A stretch of 64,000 bases of DNA from the human T2T-CHM13v2.0 reference genome, Homo sapiens: the NCBI RefSeq assembly GCF_009914755.1, contig NC_060927.1. One strand, written 5' to 3'. This document shows positions 16,331 to 27,201 of the stretch, piece by piece; the stretch's first letter is position 1, and every line of letters starts with the position of its first letter. A model generated the notes under the pieces. It was given only the letters and a program-made list of their open reading frames with translations. It ran no database searches and was not told the origin of the DNA. A program made the position numbers and the translations under genes.

Positions 16331-16554
16331 CTCATAGCAATGGTCATACCTGATCAACACTGAAAAGTTGGAAAACACAAATGTTTCTCCTTTCCCTTGT
16401 TTCTTCTCACCCTTTGTTTCTCCCAGGGGTACACAGCAAAGACAAGGAGAACGTCAAAATCTAGACGATCTAGGAAACCCAAGGGAAAAAAAGGATTGAG
16501 GTTTTCAAATGTGCTCGTCAATTGCTATAGACTGGGCAGTGGTGTGAAGAGAAG

Positions 16555-17140
16555 CAGTTGGCATGTCTGTATTTTCAGAGCAAGTCTCATAGTAGCACCT
16601 TCCTCTGTTGTTTTTCCTTAAGTTTTCCAGCTCTTTCTTCTTATGTAAATATATAAGTCCCACACCCCATTTCATGCTTTATTATTCCCAAATAGCAAAT
16701 GCATTAGGCCCTTTGATTCATCTGTGGAGAATGCATTTTGAAGCAAAGCTTAATACCCTAAAATGGTTAGTTCATGGGGTTTTAATTTTAGGAATATCAG
16801 AAAAATATTAATTCATAGTCTTCAGTTGGCACAAAAACTCAACAGATCTCCTCATGGAAAATGCCCCCTCCTGTCCTTTGCTCAGAAGTGTGCAGGAGAC
16901 TTAATGGAAATCAAAAGCCCTTGTAAGATGTGTGTGTTGCCCTGCTGGCTCCCTGGACCACGGTCTTGAAGAAAATTGTCTCCATAAGGGAAGCAAGTCT
17001 TCCTTGAGGTCTTTTGGTGGCCAGCCAAAAGAAACCTTATGCCATCTCTGGGTCTTTCAAAATGCTTTTATTAGAGACACAGTTTTAGTCCCATGGCCAA
17101 GGGAAGGCCTGAAGACCCCAAGTTTCTGCATTTTACTTTC
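16555..17140 (+). mobile_element. Putative decayed CACTA/EnSpm (CMC)-like transposase fragment
   Basis: Translation ISPTPHFMLYYSQIANALGPLIHLWRMHFEAKLNTLK, then after a frameshift NFRNIRKIL, resembles the recalled animal EnSpm motif TPKxHFxxHYxxxIxxxGPLxxxWxMRFEAKHxxFK...NFKNIxKTL. Confidence 0.6.
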
Positions 17141-18267
17141 TGCCCTGATTAGAACATCCTGATTAGTCAGATTATTTTGTAAAAATAGGATAGTCAGATC
17201 CACATCACAGAAATATTAACTTAAAATAGATAATGATTCATTAAAACTGCATAGTGCTAATGATAATTTGTAACTATTATTAACCAATGTGCAATTTTTC
17301 CCTCTATCTGCATAAGCATAACTTTTAAGCAACTAATCTTAGCAGAAAAAATAGTTTCATAGTAAAGGGATAGTTGGAAAATAATTACTGAAAAACAAAG
17401 CAAACCAAAAAACAGAAGGAATGTTACTGCTTCTCTAAATGTTCTCGATGTAAAATTAAATTAAATTTCACCAACAAAAATCCTAATAAACAAATTTGGG
17501 AGAAAAAACAGCAAACACTTTTAGTAAGTTAGATGTCTTTCAATTACTTTAAAAAATGTTTTCTATATGATCTTATCACTCAATATAATGCCCCACTTGG
17601 CTATCAACTATAGAAATAGGATTCCTTAAATGCTTCCTGGCAAAAATCAGGGCTCAGCCTGTTTTAGAACTCATCCTAAGGTTGGTCTAGGTAAGAGCAA
17701 TTTGAAAGAACTAGTTCATTATCTTAAGTACTTAATGCTCTGACCTTGGACTCACTTTCTAGCAAATGCCCTTCTATCTTGTTTCTATAACCAGGCCTCT
17801 ACTTAGAACCCCTGAGCTGGGCCCTGACTCCATGCGTTCTACTGTATTCTTGACTCCATACCCTGCTTGGTTCTCCCCAATTATCTGAGGCCCTGGAGGC
17901 TTGTTCCTGAATGTCAGCCTGGAGATCGGGGCCAGCCACCTGCTTCCTCTTTTGCCTCATGCTCCCACCTGAATCTCCATGTAGTTCCTAGTCTGGAAAC
18001 CTCTGTTCGTCTTTGAGAACCTACCTCTTGCTGTACCACCTGATGTTGCTGTCTAATCAGACTATCACCTGTTTAAGTCTCCATTCTCTCTGAACATTGT
18101 GGCCCGTCCAGCTAGACTTTTTCCAAGTGCCTGAATCATTCCAAAGGCATATAGGCTTTCCAGATCCTCTCTGCCCTGCCTGGCCAAACTCTAAGCTATC
18201 CACCAACCTCCAGTCCTAGCATTGATTTCTTAAGTTTTATATTTTAATATTTATTTATTTATTTTCT

Positions 18268-25700: not shown

Positions 25701-25999
25701 AAGGAAGGAGGTGGAAGGGTTGGAGGGATTTGGTACACAGATGGCAAGGGTACCTAGGGGAACGGAGCCTTCGTGAATCCAAATGGGCTTACCAAGACAG
25801 AGCAGTGAGATCAGCCGGGGATTTTCAGTATAAAGTGGGTGACAGGTCAAAACAAACAAACCAAAAAAGCAAACCCACGACGGAAAGTAACTCGTAATTT
25901 CAGTCCTTTTAGAACCCAGAGCTAAGCGAGGAAACCACAGGTCTCCTAAAGATTCGGGATGGCTCATCTTCTGAAGTTCAAACACTGACTCCTCACTAC

Positions 26000-26700
26000 G
26001 GCTTTCTTTTCAGGATGTCATTCTCCCGCCTCCACACTCACTACCAAACAAACATAGAAATCTACTACTGTTCTCCCCATGCACTCCATTTTCTTCCAAT
26101 CTGAGAGCCATTTGTGTGTATAATTGAAAATTAGCAGTGCAGCTGTTTGAAGAGAGTAATTTATCACAGCGCATTGTTCGTGCCTGACACTTTAGACCTG
26201 GCTCTAACAAGCCAGTGGTTACTGGGGGTTGAGCTACAGAAAGTGATTCGGCTGTAATGCTGCGTTTCCCCTGCTTTGTTGCTAATTGTAGCCTCTTTTT
26301 CTCCATTGAATTGGGAGTTGAGTAAAAGAGCTTGTTTGCTCTGTGCGGTGAGGCTGCCAGGGCCGCTTGGGCTATTATCACAAGATACTCTTGATCTTTT
26401 GAAAAGCAGGAAATAGAATTTTTCTCCAACAGGGAAAGTAATTTGCGATGCGTCCATTAGTTCTTCATTAAAGCAAGATTAAATTGCACGGCAAATCACA
26501 TCTGTGTTTGGATGATTAAAGGGTGGCATTTTAGAGGCCAAAACTAATTACTAGTCAAAATGAATGGGAGTGAAAAAACAGTCATGTTTTTACATTAGAT
26601 AGTGTGGCTTGTAATTAGATTCAAGCTAATTCCACTATTTCTTCTCTTTTAATGAGATGAGCCTGTCCTCATCTTTTTCTAGGCCATGCTAACAGCCCCA
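26000..26700. promoter_or_regulatory. Candidate conserved non-coding element or developmental enhancer
   Basis: Repeat-free, with retained CpGs, dense TAAT/ATTA sites, SOX-like CATTGT and E-boxes CAGCTG/CATCTG; inferred from composition only. Confidence 0.5.
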
Positions 26701-27201
26701 AATGTATAATTTTGATAATCCTAAGAGTTTACTTTATTGAAATTTCTTTGCTACCTGCCACAAGTGACTGTTCTCTCCAGTGGTACTTCATTACATAGAA
26801 ACACAAGCTACTCGGCAATGTAGTTTACAATATAAGTCATTCCTAGAGGAAAAAGAGTAATCTTAAATGAATATGTATAAATGTATATATGTAAGAATGT
26901 ATATTTTTAAATGTTATTGAAATTAGCCATCTCCAGAAATTTGTGCTGAACAAATCCTTCTCAGTTGGGCAACTACAAGTATTTTTAGTAATGTGGAATA
27001 AGAGTAAGATATTTGCATGCAACAGAGTGTTGAAGTGTTCTAAATTCAGTGTGCATTGGGTGTTGGTTTTTTTTTTCCTTGCTTTGTGATATAATTTTTC
27101 CTCTTATCTTCAGGATGTTTTTACCTTTTCCTATGACTAAGGCATGTTATGATGGATTCCCTTCTAGGTTCGACTTTTCTTTTTATTAAAAACACACATT
27201 A

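What the first reader, a model, noticed from the sequence alone, without database searches (positions are those of the whole stretch)
16555..17140. Fossil CACTA/EnSpm-like (CMC) transposase catalytic region in otherwise unique primate DNA
Seen: 16653-16748 translates ISPTPHFMLYYSQIANALGPLIHLWRMHFEAK, followed by LNTLKWLVH and, after a frameshift, NFRNIRKILIHSLQLAQ (from 16784). Further on comes WVFQNAFIRDTVLVPWPREGLKTPSFCIL (from 17049), and upstream lies W...IVAP. Knowledge (recalled): animal EnSpm/Mirage-type transposases carry TPKxHxxxHYxxxIxxxGPLxxxWxMRFEAKHxxFKxxx...NFKNIxKTLAxRHQ around the catalytic Glu, then a YxxGxVV...PxFxxI block. The main deviations are single-base changes (K>T aca, H>Y tat, R>H cat as a CpG transition, H>L ctt) and the motif order is colinear. 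Inference: a very old DNA transposon relic, or a dead domesticated gene. I do not know this superfamily as an established member of the human repeat set. Motifs this legible may imply past or present constraint.
Basis: partly seen in the sequence, partly recalled or inferred. Interest (0 to 1): 0.85.

Follow-up and report, generated by a model that had tools for sequence, protein, structure and literature searches.

The report
Ancient EnSpm transposase fossil, already published
A roughly 270-base stretch is the decayed remnant of the catalytic part of an EnSpm/CACTA-type "jumping gene" enzyme that entered our ancestors' genome before mammals and reptiles split; it appears to be kept as conserved non-coding DNA and seems to be the fossil already listed in a 2022 paper.

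Summary
The quoted translations are in the sequence. Two of the three motif blocks are real homology.

- **Frame A** (16620-16778) and **frame B** (16781-16888), joined across one frameshift, align without gaps to positions 669-758 of a profile I built from about 880-aa animal transposases. The score is 44.4 bits, against 27.1 bits for frame A alone.
- In reverse, two family fragments searched against the whole human assembly hit only this locus significantly (E 4.6e-5 and 1.7e-4).
- The **third block** (from 17049) and the upstream "W...IVAP" get no support.

The family carries the CMC signature: C(2)C, H(3-4)H and a final Glu. Its AlphaFold model matches the RAG1/Transib core, and 11 of 31 members give sub-threshold Pfam Transposase_21 (CACTA tnp2) hits. 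The fossil keeps the Glu codon (16740-16742) and 9 of 14 family-invariant residues, but it is frameshifted and dead.

Seven orthologue-like ORFs from unnamed records show 84-91% identity in the core against 47-56% in the upstream flank, and six share the frameshift. This points to DNA-level constraint.

It is not novel. Frith 2022 (PMC9004415, Table 3) lists an EnSpm fossil at hg38 chr3:180,734,783 (182 bp, nearest gene CCDC39, E-value 2, age amniote), almost certainly this locus. My work only raises its statistical support.

The parts
16620..16778 (+). Fossil block 1 (frame A). It holds the remnant of the H(3-4)H motif and the last catalytic Glu of a CMC-type DDE transposase. His codon cat 16668-16670 aligns to invariant H686. 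tat 16680-16682 (Tyr) stands where invariant H690 was. GPL is kept. Glu codon gaa 16740-16742 aligns to invariant E710.
   Evidence: sequence and translation; 28.2 bits, profile 668-718, rank 1 of 2936 ORFs; tblastn best E 1.9e-9; the only significant hit in the whole genome; residue-by-residue retention.
16776..16783 (.). Frameshift site. Frame A must be left after ...KWLVHG and frame B entered at FNFRN. Two bases are skipped in the read-through I used.
   Evidence: joining the frames with X here raises the score from 27.1 to 44.4 bits with an ungapped alignment; all 6 orthologue-like ORFs aligned there continue in frame A (GVLILGI...), so the frameshift is shared.
16781..16888 (+). Fossil block 2 (frame B). 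It is an NFKN...K.L..RHQ-type block (here NFRNIRKILIHSLQLAQ...) that follows the catalytic Glu helix in the family.
   Evidence: profile 724-759, colinear with block 1, rank 15 of 2936 alone; adds about 17 bits when joined. N725, F726, N728, Q738 and Q741 kept; H737 lost.
16611..16930 (.). Approximate extent of raised cross-species conservation. Orthologue-like ORFs from unnamed records are 84-91% identical in the core, against 47-56% in the flank 16391-16626. The most invariant stretch is about 16713-16796.
   Evidence: from L40 to I67 of the frame A ORF, 25 of 28 columns are invariant in 7 sequences. P0134 is 48 of 61 identical in frame B; tblastn by segment.
17049..17135 (+). Listed only to say that it is not shown to be part of the fossil.
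   Evidence: not reported.: -2.9 bits, rank 1994 of 2141 rows against the C-terminal sub-profile.

Best explanation
This is a dead fragment, about 270 bp or some 90 codons of an original 880 or so, of the transposase gene of an EnSpm/CACTA-type (CMC superfamily) cut-and-paste DNA transposon.

The ancestral protein had N-terminal C2H2 zinc fingers and a RAG1/Transib-like DDE core. The surviving piece encodes the H(3-4)H motif, the helix with the last catalytic Glu, and the following NFKN...RHQ block.

The element inserted in, or before, the amniote ancestor (age taken from Frith 2022) and lost coding capacity. There is one frameshift, 5 of 14 family-invariant residues are replaced, and no trace remains of the other roughly 790 codons.

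The fragment has since been held nearly constant at the DNA level while its flanks drifted. The most likely reason is that it was exapted as a non-coding, probably cis-regulatory, element in the CCDC39-FXR1 gene-poor interval, inside an intron of lncRNA LOC101928882.

Shown here: the homology, the frameshift, the single-copy status, and the higher conservation of the core. Taken from the paper: the amniote age and phastCons conservation. Inferred: the exaptation and what the element does.
For: Homology, forward.
- phmmer of the 71-aa frame A ORF against 1.84 billion proteins gave 9 hits at E<=1e-3. Five are transposase fragments carrying the PKHH..HY..GPLI.LWCMRFEAKH..NFKN motif (E 2.2e-4 to 9.8e-4, 42-51% identity).
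- (tblastn of the 125 family proteins P0005-P0129 against the window): 119 HSPs start in 16650-16799(+). Best E there is 1.9e-9. No other 150-bp bin has an HSP below E 0.015.
- Profile scores: 28.2 bits for frame A and 44.4 bits for the X-joined read-through, ungapped over profile 669-758.
- Retention follows family conservation: 9 of 14 invariant positions, 9 of 19 positions at 90-99%, 4 of 31 at 50-89% and 3 of 26 variable positions are kept.

Homology, reverse.
- P0005 and P0008 searched over the whole 3.1-Gb assembly hit this locus at E 4.6e-5 and 1.7e-4. Nothing else is below E 0.15.

Superfamily.
- The 60-sequence alignment has invariant C478/C481 (C(2)C), H685/H686/H690 (H(3-4)H) and E710. 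This is the signature that PMC12730594 gives for EnSpm, Mirage, Chapaev and Transib (passages read).
- 11 of 31 full-length members hit Pfam Transposase_21 at a consistent place (E 8.9e-5 to 0.095), all under the cut-off.
- The AlphaFold2 model of P0111 (pLDDT 89.4) matches the RAG1 core (Foldseek E 1.4e-10, TM 0.54-0.59 on the target), BbRAGL and HzTransib.

Conservation.

Prior report.
- PMC9004415 Table 3 (section 9 read) lists EnSpm, aligned protein EnSpm-11_HM, chr3:180,734,783, 182 bp, nearest gene CCDC39, intergene 233 kb, age amniote.
- Its text says the fossils it illustrates (fig. 5, supplementary fig. S2) lie in regions conserved in non-mammals, are not annotated by RepeatMasker and have strong phastCons.
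Against: - Only about 90 of some 880 codons are detectable. Nothing colinear is found upstream or downstream.
- No element ends (TIRs or target-site duplications) can be seen, so 'transposon insertion' as opposed to 'gene remnant' is not shown directly.
- No Pfam model is matched above its cut-off, either by the window ORFs or by the family.
- The equation with the published hg38 locus rests on chromosome, nearest gene, interval size and uniqueness. No liftover was done.
- The paper's own E-value for this fossil is 2, so it was not significant there.
- The species behind the orthologue-like ORFs are unknown, so the conservation contrast is not calibrated in time.
- No functional annotation overlaps the fossil. 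RefSeq enhancers in the window lie at 501-2032 and 25900-26949.
- Two phmmer hits with better E-values than the transposases (P0003 at 1.8e-7 and P0004 at 1.8e-6) are unrelated repeat proteins. I attribute them to summed weak repeat matches of 24.6 bits or less each.
Confidence: 0.85

Rival explanations
1. Remnant of a domesticated gene. An EnSpm transposase was co-opted as a host protein-coding gene in early amniotes and later died in the mammalian lineage. The fragment would be a host pseudogene rather than a decayed transposon copy, and an intact orthologue might survive in some sauropsids.
For: - Single recognisable copy in the genome.
- Conservation is centred on the catalytic block.
- PMC9004415 notes, for a Crypton fossil, that such relics can have been protein-coding for a time (passage read).
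Against: - All 6 orthologue-like frame A ORFs share the frameshift, and the out-of-frame tail is as conserved as the in-frame part. Conservation is therefore at the DNA level, not the protein level.
- Only about 90 codons survive, with no trace of the other domains.
- Catalytic-motif residues H685 and H690 are replaced.
Confidence: 0.08
2. Chance resemblance. Short peptide motifs in non-coding intronic DNA happen to look like a transposase.
For: - The published E-value for this fossil is 2.
- Pfam, PHROGs and the PDB sequence search give nothing significant for the window ORFs or the catalytic core.
- The third block proved to be pattern-matching without support.
Against: - 28.2 bits against a runner-up of 8.5 among 2936 ORFs.
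- 44.4 bits ungapped after one frameshift.
- Reciprocal genome-wide best hits at E 4.6e-5 and 1.7e-4.
- Matches concentrate on family-invariant positions.
Confidence: 0.02
3. A real transposase fossil that is evolving neutrally. It would be legible only because this is the most conserved block of the family, with no exaptation or present function.
For: - The matched block is by far the most conserved part of the family, so it would stay detectable longest.
- No annotated regulatory element overlaps it (hub table).
- There is no RNA-structure signal.
Against: - Core identity is 84-91% against 47-56% in the directly adjoining flank, in the same unnamed sequences.
- In the most diverged one (P0002), the 5' part of the block has drifted while LIHLW...ILGI is 28 of 29 identical.
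- Neutral DNA would not stay alignable to non-mammals, as the 'amniote' age in PMC9004415 implies.
Confidence: 0.05

Closest known systems
EnSpm protein fossil at hg38 chr3:180,734,783 (Frith 2022, Mol Biol Evol, PMC9004415, Table 3)
   Same: Same chromosome, same nearest gene (CCDC39), same kind of interval (233-kb intergenic stretch), same superfamily call, similar length (182 bp against my roughly 270 bp with the second frame). It is one of only three EnSpm fossils reported in human, and my genome-wide searches find only one such block on chr3.
   Different: The paper gives E-value 2 from a single Repbase protein (EnSpm-11_HM) and does not discuss the locus in its text; 'EnSpm' occurs only in the table. 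Here the support is far stronger, the frameshift and second block are defined, and the third block is rejected. Coordinate identity was not verified by liftover.
Animal EnSpm/CACTA-type transposases of about 880 aa (the family of P0010-P0129, for example an uncharacterised protein of Nothobranchius furzeri, P0111)
   Same: The fossil aligns without gaps to the H(3-4)H, catalytic-Glu and NFKN/RHQ region and keeps 9 of 14 invariant residues.
   Different: The living proteins are intact, with C2H2 fingers and a full DDE core. The fossil is a frameshifted 10% fragment lacking C(2)C, both Asp residues and the C-terminal beta domain.
RAG1 / Transib / ProtoRAG transposase core
   Same: The family's predicted fold matches the RAG1 core best (Foldseek E 1.4e-10). 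It shares the C(2)C and H(3-4)H motifs described for the CMC plus Transib clade.
   Different: No sequence-level match to RAG1 in the PDB search; only zinc fingers were hit. The family is a different lineage, EnSpm-like rather than Transib.
Plant CACTA/En-Spm TNP2-type transposases (Pfam Transposase_21 and DUF4218)
   Same: Sub-threshold but positionally consistent matches. Transposase_21 is hit in 11 of 31 family members. DUF4218 is hit in P0005 across the block that the fossil preserves (E 0.013).
   Different: All matches are below the Pfam gathering scores. The window ORFs themselves hit neither model.
Other exapted Paleozoic transposase fossils in gene deserts (for example the single hAT5 relic near CELF4, PMC9004415)
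   Same: Single surviving copy, unannotated by RepeatMasker, conserved across amniotes, lying in a gene-poor region.
   Different: Different superfamily. For this locus no regulatory mark or binding site has been shown.

Membership tests
CMC (EnSpm/CACTA-Mirage-Chapaev) DDE transposases: the protein family the fossil matches | C(2)C motif between the second Asp and the last Glu | tested here: met
   C478 and C481 (C-R-Y-C) are invariant in 60 of 60 aligned family members. The definition of the signature comes from PMC12730594.
CMC (EnSpm/CACTA-Mirage-Chapaev) DDE transposases: the protein family the fossil matches | H(3-4)H motif followed by the last catalytic Glu | tested here: met
   H685, H686, H690 and E710 are invariant in 60 of 60. 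That E710 is the catalytic residue is inferred from motif order, not tested.
CMC (EnSpm/CACTA-Mirage-Chapaev) DDE transposases: the protein family the fossil matches | RNase-H-like DDE core resembling RAG1/Transib | tested here: met
   The AlphaFold2 model of P0111 has pLDDT 89.4. Foldseek against the PDB: RAG1 core E 1.4e-10, BbRAGL 6.4e-9, HzTransib 2.9e-6, Hermes only 9.3e-3.
CMC (EnSpm/CACTA-Mirage-Chapaev) DDE transposases: the protein family the fossil matches | Match to the curated CACTA model Pfam Transposase_21 (tnp2) above its cut-off | tested here: inconclusive
   11 of 31 members match at a consistent place. The best is 22.2 bits against a cut-off of 28.6; 20 of 31 have no match at E<=0.1.
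CMC transposase: the window fossil itself | Retains the H(3-4)H motif and the last Glu in colinear order | tested here: inconclusive
   The Glu (gaa 16740-16742) and H686 (cat 16668-16670) are kept. H685 is now Pro and H690 is now Tyr. This is the expected state for a dead copy.
CMC transposase: the window fossil itself | C(2)C motif and the two catalytic Asp upstream | tested here: not met
   Nothing colinear with profile positions below 668 is found upstream in any frame. That part is deleted or decayed beyond detection.
CMC transposon (element level) | Terminal inverted repeats 5'-CAC...GTG-3' and 2-5 bp target-site duplications | not tested
   The element's ends cannot be located in a fragment about 270 bp long and more than 300 million years old. 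I made no attempt.
EnSpm clade, as opposed to Mirage or Chapaev | Groups with Repbase EnSpm transposases in a phylogeny or best-hit search | not testable with these tools
   No Repbase or Dfam proteins are available here. The EnSpm label rests on PMC9004415, which aligned the fossil to EnSpm-11_HM.
Exapted conserved non-coding element | Conservation clearly above that of adjoining DNA across distant species | tested here: met
   Core identity is 84-91% against 47-56% in the flank, in orthologue-like ORFs of unnamed origin. 25 of 28 columns are invariant from L40 to I67. Species and divergence times are unknown. The amniote age is taken from PMC9004415.
Exapted conserved non-coding element | Demonstrated regulatory or other activity | not testable with these tools
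   No RefSeq functional element overlaps the fossil (hub table). There is no RNA family or structure signal.
Domesticated (protein-coding) transposase gene | Intact open reading frame with catalytic or DNA-binding domains | tested here: not met
   There is a frameshift at about 16776-16783. The frame A ORF is only 71 aa and stops at 16809-16811. 5 of 14 invariant residues are lost.

The most novel reading that the evidence does not exclude
The fragment is what remains in mammals of an EnSpm transposase that was domesticated as a host gene in early amniotes, with an intact or longer orthologue still present in some sauropsid or monotreme genomes. To my knowledge (recalled, not searched) that would be the first CMC-derived host gene in vertebrates outside the RAG1/Transib lineage. 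The 250-bp core would have been re-used in mammals as a regulatory element.
Probability: 0.06. Interest if true: 0.65.

Novelty: already known. Interest (0 to 1): 0.3.

Why it matters
EnSpm/CACTA elements appear unmarked as present in human in the 2018 Repbase overview. That reading of the table formatting in PMC5753468 is mine. They were first reported in human as three weak fossils in 2022.

This locus had the weakest support of the three (E-value 2). The present analysis shows it is a genuine fossil, with a defined frameshift and a preserved catalytic Glu codon. That firms up the claim that CMC transposons were active in the ancestors of amniotes.

It also marks a roughly 250-300 bp element that seems constrained, in the gene-poor interval beyond CCDC39. 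That makes it a candidate for enhancer testing.

None of this changes the current picture. It confirms a published entry.

Tried and rejected
- **Curated libraries on the window ORFs.** Pfam gave only DUF7865 at E 0.043 and PHROGs gave nothing relevant. I treat the DUF7865 hit as noise: 0 of 31 family members hit it at E<=0.1, and its 7 weak genomic hits do not include this locus.
- **Paralogues in the genome.** By DNA, only the locus itself was found. By the 71-aa ORF, the 6 other matches lie at E 1.16-9.0. By P0005, the weak candidates on chrX, chr3, chr8 and chr6 lie at E 0.15-9.2. The family profile showed no transposase-block match in the four loci L023-L026.
- **Long queries.** Full-length P0111 returned only zinc-finger matches under a stricter filter. 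P0098 returned only this locus at E 1.59, also under the stricter filter. Absence of other fossils is therefore weak evidence; the two published chr2 fossils were not recovered.
- **Tool limits.** A Pfam scan of all 60 members of A1 exceeded the size limit and was not repeated, so the Transposase_21 count comes from 31 members chosen from the 120 listed.
- **Third motif block and upstream region.** Rejected.
- **Structured RNA.** No Rfam family at gathering score; the three sub-threshold matches lie outside the fossil. Folding z-scores are +0.96 and +0.57.
- **PDB by sequence.** Only C2H2 fingers were hit.
- **Repeat-protein hits.** P0003 and P0004 were examined and set aside as repeat-summed artefacts.
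- **Closed or missing sources.** Yuan and Wessler 2011 is not held, so the CMC signature is cited from PMC12730594 and PMC4079192 instead.
- **Literature on the lncRNA.** A search for LOC101928882 gave 2 unrelated papers, seen in the listing only.

Full report
**Observation**

- Frame A, ORF 16596-16808: ...ISPTPHFMLYYSQIANALGPLIHLWRMHFEAKLNTLKWLVHG...
- Frame B, ORF 16754-16966: ...NFRNIRKILIHSLQLAQ...
- Frame C, ORF 16905-17159: WVFQNAFIRDTVLVPWPREGLKTPSFCIL.

Curated libraries did not recognise them. Pfam gave only DUF7865 at E 0.043, under its cut-off. PHROGs gave nothing relevant.

**Is it more than chance?**

Forward search. phmmer of the 71-aa frame A ORF against 1.84 billion representative proteins returned 9 hits at E<=1e-3 (sequences).
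- Two (P0001 at 90% identity, P0002 at 69%) are orthologue-like ORFs.
- Two (P0003, P0004) are long tandem-repeat proteins. Their scores come from many weak local matches of 24.6 bits or less each, so I set them aside.
- Five (P0005-P0009, E 2.2e-4 to 9.8e-4, 42-51% identity) are fragments carrying PKHH..HY..I...GPLI.LWCMRFEAKH...NFKN..K.L..RHQ.

The family. Searching longer relatives of P0008 gave 264 proteins at E<=1e-3 among 916 candidates. They are mostly 750-960 aa. Those that carry names are 'uncharacterised' proteins of fish, a nemertean, a crinoid, spiders and ticks.

Against the window.
- In tblastn of the 125 proteins P0005-P0129 against the window, 119 HSPs start in 16650-16799(+). 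The best E there is 1.9e-9.
- No other 150-bp bin has an HSP below E 0.015.
- A profile built from the 96 members of 780-1000 aa scores the frame A ORF at 28.2 bits (profile 668-718). That is rank 1 of 2936 ORFs; the next scores 8.5 bits.
- The frame B ORF scores only 1.1 bits alone (rank 15), but on profile 724-759, which is exactly colinear.
- Reading frames A and B through with X at the break gives 44.4 bits over profile 669-758 with no gap, against 27.1 bits for A alone.
- Retention tracks family conservation: 9 of 14 invariant, 9 of 19 near-invariant, 4 of 31 moderately conserved and 3 of 26 variable positions are kept.

Reverse search. P0005 and P0008 searched across the whole assembly hit this locus at E 4.6e-5 and 1.7e-4. 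Nothing else is below E 0.15.

What is not supported. The third block is absent's 2001 rows and ranks 1994 of 2141 rows (-2.9 bits) against a C-terminal sub-profile. Nothing colinear lies upstream. The real feature is about 16620-16888.

**What the family is**

The 60-sequence alignment A1 shows:
- N-terminal C2H2 fingers;
- invariant D366 and D457;
- C478/C481, a C(2)C motif;
- C544/H547;
- H685/H686/H690, an H(3-4)H motif;
- E710.

PMC12730594 (passages read) states that EnSpm/CACTA, Mirage, Chapaev and Transib share C(2)C and H(3-4)H between the second Asp and the last Glu. PMC4079192 (passages read) names C(2)C, LH and H(4)H for Chapaev.

Other evidence on the superfamily:
- 11 of 31 full-length members give sub-threshold Pfam Transposase_21 (CACTA tnp2) matches at a consistent position. 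The best is 22.2 bits against a cut-off of 28.6, and 20 of 31 give none.
- P0005 gives DUF4218 at E 0.013 over the very block preserved in the fossil.
- An AlphaFold2 model of P0111 (pLDDT 89.4, pTM 0.83) matches the RAG1 core best in the PDB: E 1.4e-10, TM 0.54-0.59 on the target. BbRAGL and HzTransib follow, and Hermes appears only at E 9.3e-3.
- A sequence-only PDB search found only zinc fingers.

The family therefore meets the CMC signature. Its assignment to the EnSpm clade specifically rests on the literature.

**State of the fossil**

- The Glu codon (gaa, 16740-16742), one His of the H(3-4)H motif (cat, 16668-16670) and the GPL, W, K and NF.N residues are kept.
- H685 is now Pro, H690 is Tyr, K684 is Thr, R672 is Ser and H737 is Leu.
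- One frameshift lies at about 16776-16783.
- That E710 is the catalytic Glu is inferred from motif order, not tested.

**Conservation**

Seven orthologue-like ORFs from unnamed records were found (P0001, P0002, P0130-P0133 in frame A; P0134 in frame B).
- From L40 to I67 of the frame A ORF, 25 of 28 columns are invariant across the window and six others.
- All six continue in frame A past the frameshift (GVLILGI...). The frameshift is therefore shared, and the out-of-frame tail is as conserved as the in-frame part. That argues for DNA-level rather than protein-level constraint.
- By tblastn, the core 16611-16808 is 84-91% identical in five of the six frame A ORFs. The flank 16391-16626 is 47-56% identical in the three of these that also align there as a separate HSP. 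The two most diverged (P0130, P0002) align as single HSPs at 66% and 63%.
- P0134 is 48 of 61 identical in frame B, up to about 16905-16930.
- The species are unknown, so this is a contrast, not a dated rate.
- No RNA explanation appears. Rfam gives nothing at gathering score, and folding z-scores are +0.96 and +0.57.

**Prior knowledge**

[quoted passage not shown] One row reads:
- aligned protein EnSpm-11_HM;
- chr3, start 180,734,783, length 182 bp;
- nearest gene CCDC39, intergene length 233 kb;
- found in human, E-value 2, age amniote.

The text says the fossils it illustrates (fig. 5, supplementary fig. S2) lie in regions conserved in non-mammals, are not annotated by RepeatMasker and have strong phastCons. 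'EnSpm' appears only in the table.

The window starts 38.6 kb beyond CCDC39 (hub table), and no protein-coding gene is listed within 100 kb after it. My searches also find only one EnSpm-like block on chr3. I therefore equate the two loci, with roughly 90% confidence.

In the 2018 Repbase overview (PMC5753468, one passage read), EnSpm/CACTA is listed among superfamilies. From the text formatting it appears unmarked as present in human; that reading is mine.

**Mechanism and verdict**

The most likely history is as follows.
1. An EnSpm-type element inserted before the amniote radiation.
2. Its transposase gene decayed.
3. A fragment of about 250-300 bp covering the catalytic-Glu region was retained under purifying selection as non-coding, probably regulatory, DNA. 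It lies in the gene-poor interval beyond CCDC39, within an intron of lncRNA LOC101928882.

The homology, the frameshift, the single-copy status and the relative conservation are shown here. The age is taken from the paper. The function is inferred.

Rivals:
- dead domesticated gene, about 0.08;
- neutral fossil, about 0.05;
- chance resemblance, about 0.02.

The finding is real but already published. The added value here is stronger statistics, the second block, and rejection of the third.

Noticed in passing
protein cluster P0012, not in the window: One 652-aa member of the transposase family carries source names from both a cichlid fish record and a ferret record. This could be assembly contamination or horizontal transfer.
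   Followed up: no
G000:C18:39448623-39448796 (-) = L009, and six other loci L010-L015: Pfam DUF7865 gives seven weak sub-threshold six-frame matches in the human assembly, all on profile positions about 48-108 (best 24.5 bits, E 0.049). They might be relics of something, or noise. None is the window locus, and the family profile did not match them in the transposase block.
   Followed up: partly
window 17221-17312 (+) and 17294-17376 (-): Sub-threshold C/D-box snoRNA-like Rfam matches: snR60/Z15 at 25.6 bits against gathering 41, and SNORD105 at 18.7 bits against 45. They lie in an AT-rich stretch just after the fossil and are probably chance.
   Followed up: no
protein family P0010-P0129 (alignment A1): A large, well-conserved family of about 880-aa animal transposases has no Pfam model above cut-off. 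It has C2H2 fingers, a RAG1-like core and a C-terminal beta domain. 264 hits were found in one search. Its AlphaFold model is confident (pLDDT 89.4).
   Followed up: partly
window 16350-16469 (-), exon of LOC101928882: The lncRNA exon lies only about 150 bp from the fossil. The orthologue-like ORFs P0001, P0130 and P0131 run across it, and it is alignable but clearly less conserved than the fossil core.
   Followed up: partly
hg38 chr2:129,063,904 and chr2:180,729,359 (from PMC9004415, not in the window): The two other published human EnSpm fossils were not recovered by my single-protein searches of the assembly. In the paper they were found through turtle and alligator, so they may be too decayed in human.
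   Followed up: no
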